Shown piece after piece: positions 23,536 through 34,888 of a stretch of 36,598 bases of DNA. Each line of letters starts with the position of its first letter. Positions within the stretch are counted from its first letter, which is position 1. Origin of the DNA: a virus; IMG/VR virus record IMGVR_UViG_3300025536_000007, positions 1-36,598 of that record; one strand, written 5' to 3'. The position numbers and the translations under genes were made by a program. A model generated the notes under the pieces. The model did not search any database, was not told where the DNA came from, and saw only the letters and a list, made by a program, of their open reading frames with translations.

Positions 23536-23565
23536 ATTCTAGCACGGGCGAGAATTACTTGTAAA
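23536..23565 (-). promoter_or_regulatory. Promoter of the minus-strand arm (TTTACA-18-TAGAAT with TGc extension)
   Basis: The minus strand reads tttacaagtaattctcgcccgtgctagaat, followed by gagcgtATG. Confidence 0.55.
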
Positions 23566-24139
23566 CACTTTTTTGTTGTATTTTGTTGTAAAAAGTAAAC
23601 AAGTAAATTGTTTATGGATTTATTTCCGTCAGGCGAAAAGTACGCATATATATATTTTATTATATATCCCTACCTATACCCCACCCCCCTTGCCCCTTGC
23701 TTTCTCCTGTATTATATTTCCTTATATATATACCTACCTATATGCTCATGCTTACTGTTGGGATTTTGTTTGTGCATATACATCTATGTATGATTGCCCC
23801 ATGCTTACATACGCAGCAGCAACTACCTAGATACTGCTATAAATAACCTGTTATACCTGAAACATATTATAACATAAAACATATTATATAATGTCGTTGT
23901 CAATAATAAACACTTTTTTTTATAAACTCTCTCTAAAAAACAAAAAAAGAAAAAAAACAAATTAAAAAACTGACCTTCATCTGTTATTTTCGTTATGACC
24001 AAAAATAAAATGTTTATTTTTTTACCCCGAAATAAACCAAAAAAATAGTGTAGCTTATTTTTACAAAACAATAAAACCCATTTTTTTACAAATCTACCCC
24101 TGTTAGCAAAAAAACAATAAAAAATAAACAAGAAAAGTG
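23566..24139. other. Gene-free AT-rich control region with iteron-like repeats, A-tracts and a C/G-tract (candidate origin/regulatory hub)
   Basis: No credible ORF. It contains a tandem ttttgttgta x2 (23571-23590), CATGCTTAC x2, AAACATATTATA x2, tacctata x2, TTTTTAC(A/C) x3 and long A-runs at 23925-24135. Confidence 0.45.
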
Positions 24140-24174: not shown

Positions 24175-24659
24175 ATAGCAAAAGCAAAGGCTATAACGGA
24201 AATAACCACAACCGAGCGGAAAACGACAAAGCGAAATGCAGTCACCGCCAACAGTGGCAACACCATCAAATAACCATAGCAACGGCTATAACAGTACGAG
24301 CAGCAACGCAACGATTACGGCGGGCAATCCCTGGAAGATTGCAACTTTAATTGACGCAACGGGAGCTGAGCACCTTAACAATTAAAAAAATGCACAAGCG
24401 ACAAGCTATGGAATTTAGCGGCGGTGCAATAATAAACGGTGATACCTTCACCTCTGATTGAAAAGTTACGATTGAACCGTACACGCTGCAACCTATATTT
24501 TTTACAAACTTACGGCATCAACTCACATTCAATCAGGCGCGAGGGTATCACCAAAGAGCAACGATTATGAGTTGTTGCTCATCCCTCATAACGCGGTGTT
24601 ATGGGCGATGAGTAGCAACGCAAAGGCTACTATATAAATTAAGCGAAAGGAAATAAATC
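24175..24659 (+). ncRNA. Long structured 5' leader / candidate ncRNA transcribed from P1
   Basis: About 485 nt lie between the predicted TSS and the first RBS-equipped ATG (24660). Multiple long complementary segments and five (A)GCAACG copies are present; see findings. Confidence 0.5.
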
Positions 24660-26971: not shown

Positions 26972-27307
26972 ATGGCTAAGAATGAATTAGTAGCAAAGTT
27001 TGAGAAGAACCAGCAAGAAATTGCAAAACTGAACCGTAAAATCGAGGCAGCTGTTGGCGATGCAGTCACCAAAAAGGCTGAGCTTGAAAAGCAAAACACC
27101 GATATGCGTGCAGCGATTTACGAAGCGATGGAGGCAAACGACGTTGATAAGTTTGACGGCGACCTCATCACCATCACACGGGTAAAACCAACAACTCGCA
27201 CGACCTTTGACTCAAAGAGGTTTCAGGAAGAGCGACCAAAGACATACGCCAAGTACTTGAAAACTGGCAACGTCAAAGGCTCAATCCGTATAGCGGTTAA
27301 GGCATAA
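26972..27307 (+). CDS. Gp157-like protein (position and composition)
   Basis: 111 aa with an N-terminal coiled coil, lying directly upstream of the SNF2 helicase as in Gram-positive siphophage replication modules. RBS aaggaggaaaatatcATG. Confidence 0.3.
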   Translation: MAKNELVAKFEKNQQEIAKLNRKIEAAVGDAVTKKAELEKQNTDMRAAIYEAMEANDVDKFDGDLITITRVKPTTRTTFDSKRFQEERPKTYAKYLKTGNVKGSIRIAVKA

Positions 27308-27308
27308 T

Positions 27309-28502
27309 ATGCAGCTGTACCCTAGTCAAGAAAGCTACCTGACTAGACTGGGGAAGCGACCATATTTGTTCGCTGAAGTCGGAACTGGCAAAACACTGAT
27401 GGCACTTTTCCGCGTACACCGCACAGGAACGCGGAAGGTGCTTATCATTTGCCCAGCATCGGTTAGAGACACACAAGTTTGGGAGCTTGACCTTGAAAAG
27501 TCAGGATTACACTTCGACCAGTTCGAGGTGCAGGGTTTCAGCTTCTTGCAGAAATTCAATACAGTGGATTTTACGAAGTATCGTGACCATTACGTCATTA
27601 TTGACGAGGCGCACAAAATCAAGAATAGCCAGAGCAAACAGGGCATGGGCGCATTTCAGTTATGCAGTTTGGCAAAAGGCTATTTATTTTTGAGTGGTAC
27701 TCCGATGAGTAACTGGTCGCACGCCGTCAACTACGCCAAGATTACGGGGCTAGTTCGGCATAAGACTGAGTTTTACAAGCGGTTCGTGGTGGAGCAACGG
27801 TCATATGCTCACAAGGGTATGGACATCGTGGGCTATCGCGACACCGACACTCTAGTTAAATGGTGGAATAATATTGCGCTTAGGCTCAAAGCTGAAGAGT
27901 GCGTTGAGTTGCCACGCAAGCAAATCATTGACGTGCAAATTCCCGTTAAACGGAAAGAGTATATTTCGATGATTAAGAACCGCATCAACGCTGATGGTGA
28001 GCCGCTTGATTCAGCACCTAAGCTTACTTGGGCTCTTCGCAAATATGCGGAGGTTGCCCCAGAGAAGATGAACTGGGTTGTTGAGAAGGTAGAGGGTTTG
28101 CCAAACTGTTTGATATTCGCCAACACGATTCAAGCAATTGAAGACTTGAGTGCGAAATTCAAGGCAGCCAAAATCAAGCATGGTGTCTGGTACGGAGCGA
28201 AGAAAGACAAGTTCGATGACCAGCAAGTTATGATTGTGCAATATCAATCGGGTGGTACTGGTCTGAATTTACAGAAGTTCAATACGACAGTCTTTTTGTC
28301 GCCGTGCTACAGTTTCATTGACTATACTCAGGCAGTCGGGCGCACTTATCGTAACGGGCAAGAGCAGAAATGTACCTTTTACCAGTTACGAGCGGCACAA
28401 ACGATTGACGGTGCGATTTACGCGGCACTCAAAGAAAAGCGTGACTTTGACGATAAACTAACGGGCATAAAAGAAGCCTATTGGATGGAGATAATGTCAT
28501 GA
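27309..28502 (+). CDS. SNF2/DEAD-like superfamily-2 helicase
   Basis: Walker A EVGTGKT, motif II IIDEAHKIKN, motif III LSGTPMSN. C-terminal helicase motifs QSGGTGLNLQ and QAVGRTYRNGQ are also present. Confidence 0.85.
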   Translation: MQLYPSQESYLTRLGKRPYLFAEVGTGKTLMALFRVHRTGTRKVLIICPASVRDTQVWELDLEKSGLHFDQFEVQGFSFLQKFNTVDFTKYRDHYVIIDEAHKIKNSQSKQGMGAFQLCSLAKGYLFLSGTPMSNWSHAVNYAKITGLVRHKTEFYKRFVVEQRSYAHKGMDIVGYRDTDTLVKWWNNIALRLKAEECVELPRKQIIDVQIPVKRKEYISMIKNRINADGEPLDSAPKLTWALRKYAEVAPEKMNWVVEKVEGLPNCLIFANTIQAIEDLSAKFKAAKIKHGVWYGAKKDKFDDQQVMIVQYQSGGTGLNLQKFNTTVFLSPCYSFIDYTQAVGRTYRNGQEQKCTFYQLRAAQTIDGAIYAALKEKRDFDDKLTGIKEAYWMEIMS

Positions 28503-29008
28503 GAACAGAAAATGCAGGAAAGTATCTAGCAAAAACGCTTGATGAGTACCGTGAGCGCAGCGATTCAATCGCCAAAAAGTCGGAGCTTAAAGATGGCGAG
28601 CGCAAGATTGTTATTCGCCCAGGGTTTGATTTACGAGCTACAAAAGACAGTCGTTATGGTCAGGGTAGCCCGACGCTCGTATTTATGGAGCGGCGCGGCA
28701 ACGTGGCTATCGACGCAGCCTTTGGCACAGGCTGGCAAGTTAAGGGTCAAGCTCACCTTTCAATGGATGGCGAAGACATTAGTATGATGGGTTATGGTTT
28801 CTACTATCACCGATTGTACAAAAAAGATGTGAAATACCCAGAATACGCACATCAGGAAAAAGATTGCCCATTGCTCGGTCACAAAAAATGCTGGGGTGAA
28901 GCTGGTTCGGCGCTATACGGTGATGAGCTGAAGTGGATTTTACTCAACTTCGGTGAAAACGGCATTTGGGATGAAATCGACAAAGCTTTCAAGGAGTATA
29001 GCCTATGA
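28499..29008 (+). CDS. Hypothetical protein in the recombination module
   Basis: 169 aa from the ATG at 28499, which overlaps the helicase stop. The track start at 28481 is also in frame. Confidence 0.5.
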   Translation: MRTENAGKYLAKTLDEYRERSDSIAKKSELKDGERKIVIRPGFDLRATKDSRYGQGSPTLVFMERRGNVAIDAAFGTGWQVKGQAHLSMDGEDISMMGYGFYYHRLYKKDVKYPEYAHQEKDCPLLGHKKCWGEAGSALYGDELKWILLNFGENGIWDEIDKAFKEYSL

Positions 29009-29727
29009 AAAAATATGCGAAAGAATTTCGTATCAGTGATGCACCCCAAAGGTCGCCTCAATGGTACAAAGATAAGGCAGGCAAGCCAAGCGCGAGTGGA
29101 CTAGCATTTTTGTTTGATGTGCTGAAAGACGGCTATACGCCGAGCGCCAAGCAAAAGAACTACCTCAAGCAATTGGCATTTGAGCGAAAGTTCGGTGTCA
29201 CCTACGAAATATTCCAAACCAAACCAATGAAAGATGGCGTGTTTTATGAGGACTTCGCCAAAATGGTGTACGAGCGCGACACAGGTAATATCCTGAGCGA
29301 AGCGTTCTCCTATGTTTCAGATTGGTTCGTGGCAACACCAGATGGCAGAGTGTACGATAGCAAAGCCAAAACGAAGCACGGTGGTTTGGAGTGCAAGGTT
29401 GTCGGCGACAAGACTTTCTTGACGCTGATGGAAGATGGTATGCCGATAGAGCACGAGCGGCAAACACAGTCGCAGATGATGGCTACTGGTTGGGATTGGA
29501 TTGACTACGTTGTAGTAAATCTGAAAACCCGAGCTTATTTCATCTTGCGAGTGAATAGAAACAATGTGCTCATCAAGCGTATTTACGAGCGATTACACGA
29601 GCCGTTGAATTTACCGACACTGAAAGATGTTGGCGTAAAGCGGTTTGATGAGAATTTGCTCGAAGGCTGGATGACAGGTAACAATTTACAAGAAGAAGAT
29701 TTAATAATTCCCGATTTGGGATTTTAA
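29005..29727 (+). CDS. YqaJ-type (lambda Exo-like, PD-(D/E)XK) recombination exonuclease
   Basis: The N-terminus reads QRSPQWYKDKAGKPSASGLA. The catalytic pattern is ATPDGRV...GGLECKVV (D...E-x-K). Confidence 0.65.
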   Translation: MKKYAKEFRISDAPQRSPQWYKDKAGKPSASGLAFLFDVLKDGYTPSAKQKNYLKQLAFERKFGVTYEIFQTKPMKDGVFYEDFAKMVYERDTGNILSEAFSYVSDWFVATPDGRVYDSKAKTKHGGLECKVVGDKTFLTLMEDGMPIEHERQTQSQMMATGWDWIDYVVVNLKTRAYFILRVNRNNVLIKRIYERLHEPLNLPTLKDVGVKRFDENLLEGWMTGNNLQEEDLIIPDLGF

Positions 29728-29739
29728 GGAGAAAAAACA

Positions 29740-29961
29740 ATGTTTTCAATATTAGCATTAACAGGCATGGTGATAGCAATGCTTTCACCAACACAACCAA
29801 CAATAGTAGCGACTTTTGAGCCAGCAGAGCCAACTGTAGTAGCAATACTGCAGCCAGCCGAGCCGACAGTGGTCGCAACATTCAAGCAGCCAGTTCTTGA
29901 GGGCATCCCTCTTGAGTCAGCTCAACCAACCATCGTAAAAACATGGACTTTAGAAAAATAA
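29740..29961 (+). CDS. Small exported/membrane protein with 11-aa tandem repeats
   Basis: 73 aa. It has a hydrophobic N-terminus (MFSILALTGMVIAMLS) followed by PTQPTIVATFE / PAEPTVVAILQ / PAEPTVVATFK. RBS aaggagaaaaaacaATG. Confidence 0.55.
   Translation: MFSILALTGMVIAMLSPTQPTIVATFEPAEPTVVAILQPAEPTVVATFKQPVLEGIPLESAQPTIVKTWTLEK
29788..29883 (+). repeat. 33-bp in-frame tandem repeat (about 3 units)
   Basis: gagccagcagagccaactgtagtagcaata... is followed by cagccagccgagccgacagtggtcgcaaca... Confidence 0.75.
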
Positions 29962-29964
29962 CTA

Positions 29965-29993
29965 TTGCATTGTTTACTTTGCTGTGATACTAT
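29965..29993 (+). promoter_or_regulatory. Early/middle promoter P3 (TTGCAT-17-TACTAT with TGa extension)
   Basis: Reads ttgcattgtttactttgctgtgatactat. It shares GCTG.G..GATACTATATA with P1. The leader motif lies at 30002-30025. Confidence 0.65.
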
Positions 29994-30032
29994 ATAGGTA
30001 CAGCAAAGCAAGGCTACAAGAAAGGTTTTAAT

Positions 30033-30665
30033 ATGAGTCAATTAACTTTCGTCCTCGGACGAAGCGGAACAGGCAAGTCAACCAGCCTCCGCAATTTCAC
30101 AGCCAAAGACGGCATTGGTTACATTACAGCAACAGGCAAGCCATTGCCATTTAAGAGCGATATTCCGCAATTCCATGCTAAGAATTACACGGAGCTAATT
30201 GCGGCAATCAATCAGAGCAAAGCGCCTGTAGTCGTTGTTGATGACTTCAACTACTGGATGAGCTTCGAAGAGTTCAGCCAGGCGAGTGTAAAGGGCTACG
30301 AGAAGTTCACTCAAATGGCGGTCAACGTCGTGAATGTTATCGAGGCAATCACCAAGAAAGATACCGACCAGCGCTTCTATATTCTTGCCCACAGCGAGAA
30401 CAACGAGGATGGTCAATTGCGCCTCAAAACTACTGGTAAAATGGTCAGCGACAAGTTCGTGCCAGAAGGCTTGACCAATCAGGTCATCGAGACAGCAGTT
30501 GTTGACCGTGAGTTTGTGTTTAAGGTGAAGACTGACGGCACTGGCATTAAAACGCCAATGGGCATGTTCAAAGAATCTGAAGTCACCATTCCAAACGACT
30601 TGAAACAGCTTGATAAAGCATTAGTAGAGTTTTACAAACCAGTAGCACCTAAAAAGGAGAAGTAA
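30033..30665 (+). CDS. AAA_24 / Sak4-like RecA-fold ATPase (recombination mediator)
   Basis: Walker A VLGRSGTGKST and Walker B VVVVDDFNYW. Its ~210-aa size and its position between the exonuclease and the SSB-like gene fit this family. Confidence 0.6.
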   Translation: MSQLTFVLGRSGTGKSTSLRNFTAKDGIGYITATGKPLPFKSDIPQFHAKNYTELIAAINQSKAPVVVVDDFNYWMSFEEFSQASVKGYEKFTQMAVNVVNVIEAITKKDTDQRFYILAHSENNEDGQLRLKTTGKMVSDKFVPEGLTNQVIETAVVDREFVFKVKTDGTGIKTPMGMFKESEVTIPNDLKQLDKALVEFYKPVAPKKEK

Positions 30666-31015
30666 TGTTACGCAACCGCAACCAAGATTTTGCAGGCTAT
30701 CGGCAGGAATACCCACCGATTCCGATGCAACCACCAGTTTACACGCCACCTAGAGACCAGCTTGACCCGAAAGATGAGCGTTTGCTCGAACTTTCACAAG
30801 AGGTCGGCAAGCTCTACGGTGTGAATGATTTGCTTCAAGAAGACAATGTTCGGCTTGAGCAAGAGAATGTGGAGTTGCGCCGTAAGAACTCACAACTCGA
30901 AAAGCGGAATCGTGAGCTCGAAGAAAGTGAAGCGCACGATACTGGGGCGAGGACGCTTGTCGAGGCAATCAGGGTAGAGTTAAAAAATAGTAAAGCTAAG
31001 AAGGAGAAAAAATAA
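30665..31015 (+). CDS. Coiled-coil protein, unknown function
   Basis: 116 aa with RBS aaggagaagtaATG. It contains the heptads LLQEDNVRLEQENVELRRKNSQLEKRNRELEE. Confidence 0.55.
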   Translation: MLRNRNQDFAGYRQEYPPIPMQPPVYTPPRDQLDPKDERLLELSQEVGKLYGVNDLLQEDNVRLEQENVELRRKNSQLEKRNRELEESEAHDTGARTLVEAIRVELKNSKAKKEKK

Positions 31016-31212
31016 TGGAAGTAATAGTCTATACGAATATGGGCAGGACATTACTGTTCGAGAACGTAACAAACTTCAGTTTTTACGCGCAGGGTTTTGA
31101 GTTTGACTATGTTGGTGCAAGCACTGGCAAAGTTCGACACGCAAATTTCAATAACACTTCGGTTGCTGGTTATGCCACAACTGAAACTAAAACTAAGTCA
31201 GGAGCTAAGTAA
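31015..31212 (+). CDS. Hypothetical protein
   Basis: 65 aa with RBS aaggagaaaaaataATG. Confidence 0.5.
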   Translation: MEVIVYTNMGRTLLFENVTNFSFYAQGFEFDYVGASTGKVRHANFNNTSVAGYATTETKTKSGAK

Positions 31213-31853
31213 TGGCAGACCAAACAGATGAGAAGGCAAAAGCAGCTGAGCAAAAAGATTTGTTCGGTGAGTTAGAAAAGAACGATGTGCAAGTTGCTGA
31301 TGACGCAGCAGAAAAAATGAAAGAAAACATCATGACCGACAAGGGTGGTGGTAACTATCTTGGAATCGGTGTCCACGATGTCGCTGTAACCAGCGTCGAG
31401 CTTGTCAAAGCCAGCACTGGTACGCTTGGCATCCAGTTCAATGTTGAAAACGAAGATGGTCAGGGGCGTGTGAAAATGTGGCTCTCTGAGGCGGCATTGC
31501 CATACACCATTGAAAATATCAGTCGGCTTGTTGTTCACAACGCTGCAGGCGACCAAAAAGAGGCTGCTCGCACTATGATGGCAAACATCGTGAGCGCAAA
31601 ATCACTTTTCAAGACCGTCCAATTGATTTTGGTAGAGCTTGAGAAAAACAAGAAGCCATTTGTGGCTCACCTTTCAATCCGTGAAGCTCGTGATGGTAGC
31701 GTCTATACCGACAAGAATGGTGTGGAGCGAGCATCAACAGAGAGCAATCTCTTGAGCTACCGACCAAAGGAAACTTCAACTCAGGCAGCTATCGCTGCAA
31801 CTGGTGGAGAATTGGTCGCTGACAAAGACACAATAAACGGGTTGCCGTTCTAA
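31212..31853 (+). CDS. Probable ssDNA-binding protein (gp2.5/DUF669-like)
   Basis: 213 aa, downstream of the AAA_24 gene as in related modules. The C-terminus ...DKDTINGLPF ends in an SSB-style acidic/aromatic tip (compare D-I-P-F). Confidence 0.45.
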   Translation: MADQTDEKAKAAEQKDLFGELEKNDVQVADDAAEKMKENIMTDKGGGNYLGIGVHDVAVTSVELVKASTGTLGIQFNVENEDGQGRVKMWLSEAALPYTIENISRLVVHNAAGDQKEAARTMMANIVSAKSLFKTVQLILVELEKNKKPFVAHLSIREARDGSVYTDKNGVERASTESNLLSYRPKETSTQAAIAATGGELVADKDTINGLPF

Positions 31854-31860
31854 CTAAAGT

Positions 31861-32110
31861 GAGGCATTGCGCCTCGCTCTGGGCAGCTCGCAGAATAGAA
31901 ACGGGAGATTACTTAGACTTTTCTATGTAGCCTTTGCGCCCGAATCCGTAGTGAGCTGTCCATAATGAGGCGCAAGAGTTGGCGATAGATGAGGGGGAGG
32001 TTCACCTTGAAAGACCAGGCAAGCCGAAGGCGAATATTCAACGGTCAAAATGATAGGTTTCATGCCGATATCGACTAAGTATGATGAGCCCCCTGCCATT
32101 TATCGCCAAC
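31861..32110 (+). ncRNA. Two-domain structured intergenic element (candidate ncRNA or cis-regulatory RNA)
   Basis: The 270-nt gap contains no ORF. Domain 1 is closed by 31867-31889 pairing with 31953-31975. Domain 2 is closed by 31978-31997 pairing with 32089-32110. Confidence 0.45.
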
Positions 32111-32123
32111 AGGAAAAACAACT

Positions 32124-33631
<1,508 letters not shown>

Positions 33632-33635
<4 letters not shown>

Positions 33636-33859
33636 GCAACAGATATCAACCAGTACCAGAAAATATGCAGCAAGACCCTGATGGCTTGTGGCGAGCTGCT
33701 GTGCCATTGCCCTTTTTTGGAATCCGCAAGGGTTGTCATTGTGATAGGAAATTCTGGAGAGAATCAAGCTACGCAACGCACTATGTCGAGGCTCACACTG
33801 ATGGGCTTCGGTACAAAAGAACCCCAACTGGCATTCATGCAGTGGAGCGGATAGGGTGA
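33632..33859 (+). CDS. Hypothetical protein (Cys/His-containing)
   Basis: 75 aa with RBS aaggagaagatATG. Confidence 0.5.
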
Positions 33860-34074
33860 AAGTCATTCGCACTAGAAGTGCCATTGTACATCGCATCGCA
33901 GACTGCGATAATTGCAACTGGAGAGATGAGGGTTATAAAACTGCTAGCCGTTATGCTCGCAGACACTCAGAGAAAACTGGTCATACTACCAATGTTGAAA
34001 ATGGGAATTATTATCGGTACAAACCAAAAGACGGCGAAACACTCGTCGACAAAAATCAACTAAGTTTAGTCTAG
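33856..34074 (+). CDS. Small zinc-ribbon-like protein
   Basis: 72 aa. The GTG start overlaps the upstream stop (GTGA). It contains CDNCNW...ARRHSEKTGH. Confidence 0.45.
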   Translation: MKVIRTRSAIVHRIADCDNCNWRDEGYKTASRYARRHSEKTGHTTNVENGNYYRYKPKDGETLVDKNQLSLV

Positions 34075-34083
34075 GAGACAAAA

Positions 34084-34266
34084 ATGGAACTCGTGCCAAA
34101 TACAAACAACGTAAGTTATATTGACGAATACCCAGAACTAAAAAAGAGAGTTTGGCTACGACGGCTTGACGCACAACGGCGCATAGGGCAGTTAGCACTA
34201 TTCCCAGAGGATATGAACCAACTAATTTTGTTCCCAATAGATGGCGAAGGAGACGAAGGGGCATGA
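34084..34266 (+). CDS. Hypothetical protein
   Basis: 60 aa with RBS aggagacaaaaATG. Confidence 0.45.
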   Translation: MELVPNTNNVSYIDEYPELKKRVWLRRLDAQRRIGQLALFPEDMNQLILFPIDGEGDEGA

Positions 34267-34616
34267 ATATTCCGACCTCTCTCCGAACCTACGACACCGA
34301 ATTACGTTACCAAGAAGACAAACAGGCAGCTCGCACAGTACCACTAGAGGACGAGCCAGCCATCCAAGAGTGGGAGCGTTGGAGGTTGATTACCAACCGT
34401 TACCCCTATGACGCAGTGTTTTCTAAGCACGATATGTTGATACCAACCGAAGGTTACTGGCAAACAGTTAAAGATGACGACCTCCATTCGATACTAGAGG
34501 AGATTGCCGCTGAGTACGATTTTTACTTCGTGAATTTTCCACACCGACAATCTATAAAAAACCTGCTTCACATTCATTTAGTGAAGCACAAGTCACGAGA
34601 GGAAATGAAGTTTTGA
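34263..34616 (+). CDS. HIT-like (histidine-triad-type) nucleotide hydrolase/transferase candidate
   Basis: 117 aa. LITNRYPYDAVFSKHDMLIP resembles the N-x-y-P-Y...H-x-L-v-x-P HIT segment, and LLHIHLV is a partial H-x-H-x-h triad. Confidence 0.35.
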   Translation: MNIPTSLRTYDTELRYQEDKQAARTVPLEDEPAIQEWERWRLITNRYPYDAVFSKHDMLIPTEGYWQTVKDDDLHSILEEIAAEYDFYFVNFPHRQSIKNLLHIHLVKHKSREEMKF

Positions 34617-34888
34617 CGGCTCTCAACCCTTGGGAAGACCACACCAGTACTGAGTGGATGGATGGTATTCGCACCGAGGAGGATTACATAAATCGCTATA
34701 AAATGGTGATTCTCTGTGCTGATTGCAATGAATGGCATCACTTTGAGCGCGACCCAAGCACATTCTTGGCTGTTGACGGTCAGGTTTGTGCCTGTGGTAG
34801 CACTCGGTTCATAGGCAGCACTATCATCAGTGAGCGAACATGGTCGCCAGACAAGAAGCCAAAGTTGCCGAAATCACGGCGCAGGTGA
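34613..34888 (+). CDS. Zinc-ribbon protein, unknown function
   Basis: 91 aa. The TTG start overlaps the upstream TGA, and an in-frame ATG at 34658 is an alternative. It contains CADCNEWHHF...CACGSTRF. Confidence 0.4.
   Translation: MTALNPWEDHTSTEWMDGIRTEEDYINRYKMVILCADCNEWHHFERDPSTFLAVDGQVCACGSTRFIGSTIISERTWSPDKKPKLPKSRRR

What the first reader, a model, noticed from the sequence alone, without database searches (positions are those of the whole stretch)
31861..32110. A 250-nt intergenic element between the SSB-like gene and VRR-NUC folds into two domains, each clamped by an 18-20 bp long-range helix
The 270-nt gap (31854-32123) is the only large gap inside the otherwise overlapping plus-strand operon, and it has no ORF.

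Domain 1:
- TTGCGCCTC 31867-75 pairs with GAGGCGCAA 31967-75.
- GGGCAGCTC 31881-89 pairs with GAGCTGTCC 31953-61 (one G-U pair).
- These enclose the hairpin ATAGAAA 31895-901 / TTTCTAT 31920-26.

Domain 2:
- GTTGGCGATA 31978-87 pairs with TATCGCCAAC 32101-10.
- GATG 31988-91 pairs with CATT 32097-100.
- AGGGGG 31992-97 pairs with CCCCCT 32089-94. Together these give 20 bp with a 2-nt bulge.

Competing pairings exist. GAGGC occurs at 31861 and 31967, both able to pair with GCCTC at 31871-75. TTGCGCC occurs at 31867 and 31934, both able to pair with GGCGCAA at 31969-75. The 5' local hairpin (31861-75) and the long-range clamp are therefore mutually exclusive.

The 3' strand of domain 2 ends 13 nt before the ATG at 32124, next to the weak AGGA RBS. 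The fold could gate translation of the downstream nuclease/replication genes, or the element could be a stand-alone RNA. An 8-bp palindrome CGATATCG (32066-73) sits in domain 2.
Basis: partly seen in the sequence, partly recalled or inferred. Interest (0 to 1): 0.66.

Follow-up and report, generated by a model that had tools for sequence, protein, structure and literature searches.

The report
Conserved structured RNA between phage genes
The gap between a phage's DNA-binding-protein gene and its nuclease gene holds a previously uncatalogued, strongly conserved folded RNA element (a long rod with an invariant internal loop), followed in this phage by a second, non-conserved accessory hairpin; its job is not known but it most likely acts on the messenger RNA between the two genes.

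Summary
Both halves of the 270-nt gap fold far better than shuffles (z -4.5 and -4.2).

Domain 1 (31857-31976) is a new conserved RNA family. About 30 distinct uncultured ~37-kb phages carry it, always between the SSB-like stop codon and the VRR-NUC start codon, on the gene strand. On 26 members, 94.9% of pair cells are standard pairs, 19 of 34 pairs show compensatory changes, and 0 of 500 shuffles reach this. G·U outnumbers A·C 78 to 4, which fixes the sense strand. It forms one long rod:
- a 20-27-bp closing helix
- a covarying CRGG/CCYG helix
- a nearly invariant loop, GUAG-CCUUUGCR
- a variable tip

No Rfam family matches.

Domain 2 (31978-32110) is not conserved. Most relatives lack it, and some carry other clamped hairpins with a similar closing helix.

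Function is inferred, not shown. My best guess (0.35) is an intercistronic mRNA processing and stability element. Rivals are a translational gate, an excised small RNA and a single-stranded-DNA signal.

Verdict: a new RNA motif of moderate interest.

The parts
31212..31853 (+). Upstream gene: SSB-like protein (213 aa), ending ...GLPF-stop
   Evidence: The PHROG match is weak: phrog_743, single-strand DNA binding protein, E 6.5e-5. There is no Pfam hit. An AlphaFold2 model (pLDDT 80) gives only weak Foldseek hits (E >= 2.7e-3), but almost all are OB-fold ssDNA-binding proteins such as PrgE, RPA and bacterial SSBs. 183 homologues were found in metagenomes.
31859..31877 (+). Alternative 5' hairpin 'A·B': arm A 31859-31865 (GUGAGGC), loop 31866-31870, arm 31871-31877 (GCCUCGC). 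It starts 6 nt after the SSB stop codon and is mutually exclusive with the base of P1.
   Evidence: 24 of 25 members form 5-9 bp here, with A starting 1-8 nt after the stop codon. On alignment A5, 93.2% of cells are paired, 2 of 7 pairs show double-sided change (A-U 17 / G-C 4), and 3 of 500 shuffles reach the observed values. The minimal subgroup changes A, B and A' together: GCGGGC/GCCCGC to GUGAGC/GCUCAC.
31867..31891 (+). P1 5' strand ('B') of the domain-1 closing helix
   Evidence: It pairs with 31951-31975 over 25 positions: 20 Watson-Crick pairs, 3 G·U and 2 mismatches (C·A, C·U). Across 26 members, helix 1 is 97.3% paired, and 13 of its 22 pairs show compensatory change.
31951..31975 (+). 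P1 3' strand ('A'')
   Evidence: Evidence as for the P1 5' strand. In members without a domain 2, this strand ends 6-13 nt before the downstream ATG.
31895..31899 (+). P1a 5' strand. This is a weak, optional helix with 31945-31949; it is absent in the minimal members L017, L023 and L133-L137.
   Evidence: In alignment A7, helix 2 is 73.9% paired and the outer pairs of helix 3 covary. It is 9 perfect base pairs in L142 (GGCGGCAGG/CCUGCCGCC) and 10 in L018.
31902..31905 (+). P2 5' strand, CGGG (pairs with CCCG at 31939-31942)
   Evidence: The second pair covaries cleanly: A-U 14, G-C 10, G·U 1, other 1. The two inner G-C pairs are invariant in 26 of 26 members.
31906..31912 (+). 5' side of the internal loop (AGA, 31906-31908) and P3 5' strand (UUAC, 31909-31912)
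   Evidence: The ARA motif is conserved. P3 (YUAC/GUAG) is 91.3% paired but varies on one side only (U·G 17 / C-G 6). Its sequence is conserved, but covariation does not prove the helix.
31913..31926 (+). P4: variable apical hairpin (UAGA 31914-17 / UCUA 31922-25)
   Evidence: Length and sequence vary between members. Eight relatives carry a 45-75-nt extension here (GCUGG-AAAUUYAGAA...GGUUGUGMAACGACC-CCAGC), whose outer stem covaries.
31927..31942 (+). Conserved core: P3 3' strand GUAG, the 8-nt loop CCUUUGCG (31931-31938), and P2 3' strand CCCG
   Evidence: The sequence GTAGCCTTTGCRCCYG is identical in 26 of about 30 distinct members, although the flanking proteins are only 47-90% identical. 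The variants are GUAGCCUUGCAACC (L132), AUAGCUCUUGCGCC (L144), GUAGCCUUUGCUCC (L119) and UUAGACCUUUGCAC (L133-L138).
31978..32110 (+). Domain 2: accessory long hairpin. The closing helix is 31978-31991 / 32097-32110, continued by 31993-31997 / 32089-32094. The interior is weakly structured.
   Evidence: The fold has z = -4.2. A 17-mer scan of IMG/VR gave only chance coding hits. About 9 of 30 relatives have other clamped hairpins at the same place, with closing helix UUGAGYGUA...UACRCUYAA. The window's GUUGGCGAUA...UAUCGCCAAC resembles this.
32111..32126 (+). Translation start region of the downstream gene: AGGA 32111-32114, A-rich spacer AAAAACAAC, ATG 32124
   Evidence: Read directly from the sequence. 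In all members the last clamp ends 6-14 nt before the ATG. Several members have no recognisable Shine-Dalgarno sequence.
32124..32414 (+). Downstream gene: VRR-NUC-type nuclease (96 aa). It overlaps the next gene (3'-5' exonuclease), which in turn overlaps a Prim-Pol gene.
   Evidence: It matches phrog_93 endonuclease at E 2.9e-14. A profile of the family hits PDB 4qbn 'Nuclease' at E 9.2e-5.

Best explanation
SHOWN. Domain 1 (31857-31976) is a conserved structured element of the sense-strand transcript of the phage replication/recombination operon. It is one long irregular rod. A 20-27-bp closing helix (P1) carries a short covarying helix (P2), a nearly invariant asymmetric internal loop (ARA opposite CCUUUGCR next to GUAG), and a variable tip. 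A small hairpin (A·B) directly after the SSB stop codon competes for the lower half of P1. Domain 2 is a lineage-specific accessory hairpin of the same clamped design.

INFERRED (most likely mechanism). The element works post-transcriptionally, in cis, as an intercistronic processing and stability module.
- P1 spans two helical turns and is interrupted by conserved mismatches, so it looks like a substrate for a double-strand-specific endonuclease of the RNase III type.
- Cleavage would separate the SSB message from the nuclease/exonuclease/primase message.
- The freed lower part of strand B would then fold back on arm A. This gives the SSB mRNA a protective 3' hairpin.
- The downstream fragment would start a few nucleotides before its A-rich ribosome-binding region.
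- The abundant SSB and the potentially harmful nuclease could then be expressed at different levels from one transcript.
- The invariant loop would be the docking site of a factor (protein or RNA) that directs or modulates this step.
For: For a structured sense-strand RNA:
- Fold z-scores are -4.5 to -4.7.
- A covariance model finds exactly one copy per phage and nothing in unrelated loci.
- 26 distinct members give 94.9% paired cells, 19 of 34 pairs with compensatory change, 0 of 500 shuffles, and slid controls of 35-42%.
- Helical columns hold 78 G·U against 4 A·C.
- All 5 extra contexts reached through SSB homologues carry it.

For cis action between cistrons:
- It always sits between the SSB stop and the VRR-NUC start.
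- Arm A starts 1-8 nt after the stop codon.
- The last clamp ends 6-14 nt before the ATG, whichever element comes last.
- There is no promoter-like site or intrinsic terminator on the plus strand in the gap, so the element is read through mid-operon.

For a processing stem:
- P1 is 20-27 bp in every member, split into two ~10-11-bp halves by conserved mismatches at fixed positions.
- The idealised E. coli RNase III substrate is 22 bp (two helical turns), internal loops and mismatches steer its cleavage, and phage T7 uses five such signals in its polycistronic early RNA (PMC3867540).
- Arm A pairs only with the lower-stem part of B, which is what a 3' protective hairpin left after cleavage would need.
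- Accessory hairpins (D2 types, and the L139 element) also have 17-25-bp clamps.
- There is precedent for special post-transcriptional handling of a phage SSB message: T4 gene 32 mRNA is processed, including a cut close to its stop codon, and gp32 binds its own leader (PMC3014915).
Against: - There is no transcript, cleavage or binding data. The host is unknown, and no cultured relative exists.
- A plain RNase III site does not need a 16-nt core conserved far better than the flanking proteins. The invariant loop is therefore unexplained by processing alone.
- The A·B hairpin has only modest covariation (2 of 7 pairs, 3 of 500 shuffles) and is degraded in L133.
- Tight spacing to the stop and start codons could simply reflect phage genome compaction.
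- P3 is supported by conservation only, not by covariation.
Confidence: 0.35

Rival explanations
1. Translational gate. The rod, with or without a bound protein or small ligand at the invariant loop, controls ribosome access to the VRR-NUC start. Through the overlapping reading frames it would also control the exonuclease and Prim-Pol genes. One variant: ribosomes terminating at the SSB stop melt the A·B hairpin and remodel the fold, and the clamps bring the stop and start codons close together, so that downstream initiation is coupled to SSB translation.
For: - The last clamp always ends 6-14 nt before the ATG.
- Several members have no Shine-Dalgarno sequence, only an A-rich leader. This favours coupling or structure-dependent initiation.
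- In L001 and L002 the P1 helix extends into the AAGGG Shine-Dalgarno sequence.
- Arm A lies within a terminating ribosome's footprint.
- The downstream genes overlap.
- An invariant asymmetric loop is what a protein- or ligand-binding site looks like.
- SSB proteins acting as translational repressors have precedent in T4 gp32 (PMC3014915).
Against: - In about 9 of 30 members, 70-290 nt of unrelated hairpins separate domain 1 from the ribosome-binding site. Domain 1 itself therefore cannot be what occludes the site.
- P1 (about -40 kcal/mol) is far more stable than A·B, so no equilibrium switch is expected.
- Pairing of the Shine-Dalgarno sequence with the element is not conserved across subgroups.
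- The element is intercistronic, not in a 5' leader.
Confidence: 0.25
2. Stand-alone small RNA. The upper part of domain 1 (upper P1, P2, loop, P3, P4; about 70-150 nt) is cut out of the operon transcript, as ribosomal RNAs are cut out of their long flanking stems. It then acts in trans on a host or phage target, for example as a decoy, sponge, guide or catalytic RNA. The invariant loop would be its active site.
For: - The core is conserved far more strongly than the flanking proteins.
- An optional, structured peripheral extension sits in P4, with a covarying outer stem and an invariant inner hairpin. Such extensions are typical of functional folded RNAs.
- The long flanking stem resembles processing stems.
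- There is one copy per genome.
Against: - It has no promoter or terminator of its own.
- No target or partner can be named.
- The CCUUU of the loop is complementary only to generic Shine-Dalgarno-like sequences.
- The strict position between the same two genes argues for a local role.
Confidence: 0.2
3. Single-stranded-DNA signal. The hairpins form in DNA during replication or recombination. They would serve as an origin, a priming or primosome-assembly site for the nearby Prim-Pol, or a loading site for the SSB/Sak4 proteins.
For: - It lies inside the replication/recombination module: helicase, YqaJ exonuclease, Sak4-like annealase, SSB, VRR-NUC, exonuclease, Prim-Pol.
- The structure is strand-specific and hairpin-based, as in known single-strand initiation signals (from general knowledge).
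Against: - Helical columns hold 78 G·U-type pairs against 4 A·C. G·U is near-neutral in RNA, but G·T is destabilising in DNA, and some members have 5 such pairs in P1.
- The structured strand is always the mRNA-sense strand.
- The element's ends are tied to a stop codon and a start codon.
- There are no iterons or AT-rich unwinding region in the window's gap.
Confidence: 0.07
4. Non-functional insertion: remnants of small mobile inverted-repeat elements that landed in a tolerant intergenic site.
For: - Domain 2 and its relatives are variably present, have terminal inverted repeats, and occur upstream of, inside (P4) or downstream of domain 1.
- Arm A and strand A' look like a direct repeat flanking domain 1.
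Against: - For domain 1: an invariant core and compensatory changes across phages whose proteins are only ~50% identical. It is single-copy per genome.
Mobility is therefore not demonstrated either.
Confidence: 0.05

Closest known systems
RNase III processing signals between cistrons of phage T7 early and late polycistronic mRNAs
   Same: Both are irregular hairpins of about two helical turns between genes of a phage operon, interrupted by an internal loop or mismatches. In T7, cleavage leaves a hairpin at the 3' end of the upstream message (PMC3867540, and general knowledge). Here P1 is 20-27 bp with conserved mismatches, and arm A could rebuild a 3' hairpin.
   Different: T7 sites are simple hairpins capped by a small loop. 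Here the stem carries a 60-150-nt conserved domain with an invariant loop. There is no sequence similarity, and cleavage is untested.
Processing stems flanking 16S and 23S rRNA (and some small RNAs) that are cut by RNase III to release the enclosed RNA
   Same: A long-range helix formed by sequences 5' and 3' of a conserved structured RNA.
   Different: The enclosed RNA here is only ~70-150 nt, of unknown function, and sits inside an mRNA between two protein genes.
Translational operators of phage replication proteins (T4 gp32 leader pseudoknot, gp43 hairpin operator, RegA sites)
   Same: A structured mRNA element in a phage DNA-replication gene cluster, next to an SSB gene. A conserved, apparently single-stranded U-rich motif could bind an ssDNA-binding protein (PMC3014915).
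   Different: The T4 operator lies 5' of gene 32 and overlaps its own ribosome-binding site. This element lies 3' of the SSB gene and is a rod, with no pseudoknot in the conserved fold. It is often separated from the next ribosome-binding site by other hairpins.
Rod-shaped riboswitch aptamers with a ligand-binding internal loop (e.g. THF-II/folE, NMT1/xanthine)
   Same: The overall shape is one hairpin rod whose conserved nucleotides cluster in an asymmetric internal loop. There is also an alternative pairing that involves the P1 strand.
   Different: No Rfam model matches. The location is intercistronic. The competing helix lies upstream rather than downstream of the aptamer. P1 is far longer and more stable than riboswitch P1 helices.
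Unnamed candidate structured RNAs predicted in bulk from IMG/VR (Fremin et al. 2023, 8,495 'DNAVirus_X' motifs)
   Same: They come from the same data source (IMG/VR intergenic regions) and the same kind of evidence (covariation). That study also reports motifs next to phage SSB (gp32) genes (PMC10690425).
   Different: Their gp32-linked motifs lie upstream of gp32 genes. Their alignments are not held here, so I could not check whether this motif is one of theirs.

Membership tests
Any Rfam 15 family | Score at or above the family's gathering threshold with its covariance model | tested here: not met
   There are no hits at gathering score in the whole window. The best sub-threshold hits in 31700-32300 are rli23 on the minus strand (22.3 bits against a threshold of 45) and sR42 (10.5 against 38). 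Seven related loci give no hits at E <= 1.
tRNA / tmRNA / tRNA-like | Cloverleaf or tmRNA fold detected by ARAGORN | tested here: not met
   ARAGORN finds 0 genes in the window.
Intrinsic (Rho-independent) terminator | GC-rich hairpin followed by a U run on the transcribed strand | tested here: not met
   No plus-strand terminator-like site lies in the gap. The only hit there is the A·B hairpin read on the minus strand. The sequences after A·B, P1 and D2 have no T run.
RNase III processing site (T7 type) | About 20-22 bp or more of mostly double-stranded RNA, often with an internal loop, between cistrons | tested here: met
   P1 is 20-27 bp in all 25 members examined, with conserved mismatches near its middle. 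It lies between two cistrons of one operon.
RNase III processing site (T7 type) | Actual cleavage by RNase III, in vivo or in vitro | not testable with these tools
   No transcript or enzymatic data are available.
Riboswitch | Conserved aptamer whose invariant nucleotides cluster in a junction or loop and whose helices are supported by covariation | tested here: met
   The core GUAG-CCUUUGCR-CCYG is invariant, and P1 and P2 covary.
Riboswitch | Location in a 5' leader, with an expression platform (terminator or Shine-Dalgarno-sequestering helix) that competes with the aptamer | tested here: not met
   The element is intercistronic. It has no terminator. Shine-Dalgarno pairing is not conserved, and other hairpins often lie between the element and the start. 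The competing helix A·B lies upstream of the aptamer-like fold.
Riboswitch | Specific ligand binding | not testable with these tools
   This needs in-line probing or calorimetry.
Translational operator of a phage replication protein (gp32 type) | Overlaps or abuts the ribosome-binding site of the regulated gene, and is bound by the regulator protein | tested here: inconclusive
   The element abuts the ribosome-binding site in about 21 of 30 members but is 70-290 nt away in the others. Protein binding is not testable here.
Miniature inverted-repeat mobile element (considered for domain 2) | Multiple near-identical copies at different sites; terminal inverted repeats; target-site duplication | tested here: not met
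   Terminal inverted repeats are present.
Protein-coding gene | A conserved open reading frame | tested here: not met
   Only short ORFs overlap the gap: 32 aa on the plus strand, and 42 and 58 aa on the minus strand. Member lengths differ by non-multiples of 3, and the reading frame shifts between L001 and L002.

The most novel reading that the evidence does not exclude
Domain 1 is the founding member of a new class of functional phage RNA. It would be either a ligand- or protein-sensing switch, or a small RNA excised from the replication operon, whose invariant CCUUUGCR loop is an active or binding site. Its peripheral domain is modular: it can sit inside the tip (the P4 extension) or, as in this window, lie beside the rod as a separate clamped hairpin (domain 2). 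If so, the RNA would give an uncultured phage group a dedicated RNA-level control over the balance between SSB and its nuclease and primase genes.
Probability: 0.2. Interest if true: 0.75.

Novelty: new variant of a known kind. Interest (0 to 1): 0.55.

Why it matters
Conserved structured RNAs inside phage operons are few, and experimentally understood ones are fewer still: T7 RNase III sites, T4 operators, and nut/put sites. This one has unusually clean comparative support and a 16-nt core conserved better than the neighbouring proteins. It also has a built-in alternative pairing and sits at the hinge between a protein needed in bulk (SSB) and enzymes that are needed sparingly (a junction-cutting nuclease, an exonuclease and a primase).

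If the processing or gating idea holds, it shows how an uncultured phage lineage sets expression ratios within one transcript. It would also provide a compact, portable intercistronic control part. If the loop binds a ligand or a host factor, it would be a new sensor class.

Even as a bare motif it can serve as a marker for this phage group.

Tried and rejected
- **Rfam.** No family matched the window, the gap at permissive thresholds, or seven relatives.
- **tRNA/tmRNA.** ARAGORN found none.
- **Promoter and terminator scan.** Nothing on the plus strand in the gap.
- **Cultured phages (INPHARED).** The gap gave no DNA match. The SSB-like protein gave no tblastn match. VRR-NUC matched only Bacillus phages at 32% identity. 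No annotated relative could be used.
- **GTDB genome scan with the core pattern.** All 17 hits were chance matches in coding regions. There is therefore no evidence of prophage copies and no host assignment.
- **Plain 17-mer core scan of IMG/VR.** Most of the 55 hits were chance or unrelated coding families and were discarded by eye.
- **Loose regular expression for domain-2-like termini.** It was uninformative noise.
It pairs only in close relatives, and is rejected as the conserved fold.
- **Pairing of the invariant core with A' or the Shine-Dalgarno sequence.** It gives 10 bp in L001 and L002, but is not conserved in subgroups where A' differs. I reject it as a general feature (from the sequences).
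- **K-turn, SRP, 6S, Y RNA, phi29 pRNA and group II intron domain 5.** I considered these from memory. None fits the loop sequence, and none is found by Rfam.
- **Exclusive relationship between the P4 extension and domain 2.** D2 occurs in 6 of 16 members without an extension and in 1-2 of 8 with the canonical extension. This is not convincing.
- **Supplementary alignments of PMC10690425.** They are not held, so I could not check for overlap with its motifs.
Full report
**1. The observation**

The window's plus-strand gene run 26972-34888 is tightly packed. The 270-nt gap 31854-32123 is its only large non-coding stretch.

The whole gap folds into exactly the two clamped domains described: -99.4 kcal/mol, z = -4.7, 0 of 200 dinucleotide shuffles as good. 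Each domain alone is significant:

| Region | Energy (kcal/mol) | z-score |
|---|---|---|
| Domain 1, 31857-31977 | -50.3 | -4.5 |
| Domain 2, 31976-32112 | -49.1 | -4.2 |

The opposite strand also folds well (z = -4.0), as long inverted repeats must. Folding energy alone therefore does not tell which strand matters.

**2. Context**

- The upstream gene (31212-31853) has a weak PHROG match to single-strand DNA binding proteins.
- Its AlphaFold2 model (pLDDT 80) gives only weak structural hits, but nearly all are OB-fold ssDNA-binding proteins. It ends in ...LPF, as SSB tails do.
- The downstream gene (32124-32414) is a VRR-NUC-type nuclease (phrog_93; PDB 4qbn at E 9e-5 with a family profile).
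- Around them lie an SNF2-type helicase, a YqaJ exonuclease, a Sak4-like annealase, a 3'-5' exonuclease and a Prim-Pol. The last three genes overlap one another.
- The gap has no plus-strand promoter-like or terminator-like site. The element is therefore transcribed as an internal part of the operon RNA.

**3. Is it a known RNA?**

No Rfam 15 family reaches threshold in the window. Nothing credible appears at E <= 10 in the gap or at E <= 1 in seven related loci. ARAGORN finds no tRNA or tmRNA.

The gap and the SSB-like protein have no match in about 50,000 deposited phage genomes. The nuclease matches only Bacillus phages at 32% identity.

A bulk survey of IMG/VR predicted 8,495 unnamed structured motifs, some next to gp32 genes (PMC10690425). 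Its alignments are not available here, so overlap with one of them cannot be excluded.

**4. Relatives**

I reached relatives by four routes:
- protein-guided searches with the two flanking genes;
- a core-sequence pattern scanned in IMG/VR, metagenomes and GTDB genomes;
- the context of SSB homologues drawn from the large protein collection.

Together they give about 30 distinct members.
- All come from uncultured viral or metagenomic contigs, many of 34-40 kb.
- None comes from a GTDB genome; all 17 genome hits were chance matches.
- In every member the element lies between the SSB stop and the VRR-NUC start, on the gene strand.
- A covariance model built from seven members finds one copy per phage at 30-134 bits on the sense strand.
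- Only two related contigs (L139, L140) have something else in that slot: a ~250-nt AT-rich stretch closed by a 20-bp clamp. One distant nuclease homologue (L141) sits in a different context.

**5. Anatomy of domain 1**

- **P1** pairs 31867-31891 with 31951-31975. It is 20-27 bp in all members, with conserved mismatches near the middle.
- **P1a** is an optional weak helix. It is absent in the minimal members and forms 9-10 perfect pairs in L142 and L018.
- **P2** (CRGG/CCYG) has a second pair that switches cleanly between A-U (14) and G-C (10).
- **The internal loop** is asymmetric: ARA on the 5' side, CCUUUGCR on the 3' side.
- **P3** (YUAC/GUAG) is conserved in sequence and varies on one side only.
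- **P4** is a variable tip. In eight relatives it carries a 45-75-nt extension with a covarying outer stem and an invariant inner hairpin.

On 26 distinct sequences:

| Measure | Observed | Control |
|---|---|---|
| Pair cells that are standard pairs | 94.9% | 35-42% when partners are slid |
| Pairs with changes on both sides | 19 of 34 | 0 of 500 shuffles reach any of the observed measures |

In helical columns, G·U pairs outnumber A·C by 78 to 4. The structure therefore belongs to the sense strand and behaves like RNA.

The core GUAGCCUUUGCRCCYG is identical in 26 of about 30 members, although the flanking proteins are only 47-90% identical. Four variants differ by one to three bases.

The minimal form is about 95 nt (L133-L138). 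It keeps only P1, P2, the loop, a 3-4-bp P3 and a small tip.

**6. The competing pairings**

The hairpin directly after the stop codon (arm A 31859-31865 with 31871-31877) exists in 24 of 25 members. It starts 1-8 nt after the stop.
- It is 93% paired, with two covarying pairs.
- The minimal subgroup changes A, B and A' together.
- Both pairings of strand B are thus maintained, though the evidence for A·B is much thinner than for P1. A is also degraded in L133.
- A pairs only with the part of B that forms the lower half of P1.

Its complementarity to A' holds only in the subgroup where A' reads GGCGCAA, so I do not regard it as a conserved feature.

It also conflicts with P2 and P3.

**7. Domain 2**

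The clamp is real, but the domain is not conserved.
- About 21 of 30 members go from P1 to the start codon in 10-18 nt.
- A 17-mer scan of IMG/VR gave no true match.
- The closest relative (L002, SSB 90% identical) lacks domain 2 and instead has the P4 extension.
- About nine members do carry one or two other clamped hairpins of 70-210 nt at the same place. L008 also has one upstream of domain 1.
- Six or seven of these share the closing helix UUGAGYGUA...UACRCUYAA, with a C-G to U-A exchange. The window's GUUGGCGAUA...UAUCGCCAAC is recognisably similar.

Domain 2 is therefore best described as a lineage-specific member of a loose family of accessory clamped hairpins. Its interior, including the CGATATCG palindrome, carries no comparative support.

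Whichever element comes last, its closing helix ends 6-14 nt before the ATG. Several members have no Shine-Dalgarno sequence, only an A-rich leader such as AAAAACAAC.

**8. What it most likely does**

*Shown:* it is a conserved sense-strand structured element inside an operon transcript, with a candidate binding loop and an alternative 5' hairpin.

*Inferred:* the feature common to domain 1, the accessory hairpins and the L139 element is a closing helix of about two turns. That is the size of an RNase III substrate, and internal mismatches are known to steer its cleavage. T7 uses such signals between cistrons (PMC3867540).

Cleavage in P1 would separate the SSB message from the nuclease and primase message. 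It would leave arm A free to fold with the remaining lower-stem part of B, forming a 3' protective hairpin. This gives arm A a reason to exist, which an equilibrium switch does not, because P1 is far more stable than A·B. It would also allow high SSB and low nuclease output from one transcript. The T4 SSB message is likewise processed and separately regulated (PMC3014915). I give this reading 0.35.

This reading does not explain the invariant loop, which points to a specific partner.

Rival readings:

| Reading | Confidence | Main point for or against |
|---|---|---|
| Translational gate or coupling device | 0.25 | Favoured by the fixed spacing and the members without a Shine-Dalgarno sequence; weakened by members where other hairpins intervene |
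| Excised trans-acting small RNA | 0.20 | Strong core conservation, but no promoter or terminator of its own and no named target |
| Single-stranded-DNA signal for the nearby Prim-Pol | 0.07 | Disfavoured by the G·U excess |
| Inert insertion | 0.05 | Effectively excluded for domain 1 |

**9. Verdict**

The finding is real and its first half is a new, well-supported RNA motif. Its second half is an accessory. The function is open and needs experiments.

It is a new family within a familiar category: structured intercistronic elements of phage operons. With thousands of unnamed phage RNA motifs already predicted, I rate the interest as moderate (0.55). The rating would rise if the loop turns out to bind a ligand or host factor, or if the RNA is excised and active.

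Noticed in passing
window 24438-24552 (+): This is a second long clamped hairpin. Its 25-nt arms are 84% complementary and lie 65 nt apart. The fold is -38.6 kcal/mol with z = -5.9. It lies in the ~1.1-kb non-coding stretch between the minus-strand structural genes and the plus-strand early operon, and has the same 'two-turn clamp, loose interior' design as domain 2.
   Followed up: partly
window 23555-24021: Several AT-rich inverted repeats lie in the divergent intergenic region: 23555-23606, 23640-23737 and 23902-24021. This is probably the early promoter/operator region.
   Followed up: no
L139 and L140, about 1290-1500 (gap between the SSB-like gene and the VRR-NUC gene): In these two contigs (IMG/VR ids beginning 7000000667 and 3300007794) the same intergenic slot holds a ~250-nt AT-rich element. 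It is closed by a 20-bp clamp (CTACTGTATCAGATTAGCGC / GCGCTAACCTGATACAGTAG) and lacks the CCUUUGC core. By eye, it contains a possible 27-codon hydrophobic ORF.
   Followed up: no
Relatives L001, L002, L003, L042, L054, L082, L094, L119 (tip of domain 1): These carry an optional 45-75-nt extension of P4 with conserved AAAUUYAGAA and an invariant hairpin GGUUGU-GMA-ANGACC. The outer stem covaries. Short stretches of the window's domain 2 (GGTTCACCTTGAAAGACCAGGC) and of L004's accessory hairpin (GGTGACGCGACCCACCA) resemble it. The accessory hairpins and the tip extension may therefore be related modules.
   Followed up: partly
L008 1650-1740 (upstream of domain 1) and L018 5540-5800: L008 has an extra clamped hairpin between the SSB stop codon and domain 1. 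L018 has two accessory hairpins in tandem after domain 1.
   Followed up: partly
Start regions of the VRR-NUC gene in L006, L023, L084, L132, L142, L144: These have no recognisable Shine-Dalgarno sequence. The leader is A-rich (for example AAAAACAAC) and directly follows a very stable helix. Initiation may depend on coupling or on a structure-adjacent standby site.
   Followed up: partly
L119 about 1350-1375: Between domain 1 and the accessory hairpin lies AAAAAGGGGGGTATGAAAATTAGAGCGTAG. It looks like a relic ribosome-binding site and start codon followed by a 5-codon mini-ORF. This suggests the accessory hairpin was inserted between domain 1 and the original start.
   Followed up: no
L142 553-819 (NCBI GCA_009612975.1, contig WBZP01000842.1): In a related phage contig, a small gene three genes upstream of the SSB-like gene carries the Pfam Acb2_Tad1_hairpin domain, which is found in anti-defence sponge proteins.
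   Followed up: no
window 31861-31875, minus strand: Read on the minus strand, the A·B hairpin scores as a terminator-like site: a 6-bp stem followed by a T-rich tail. No minus-strand gene lies upstream of it, so this is probably incidental.
   Followed up: no
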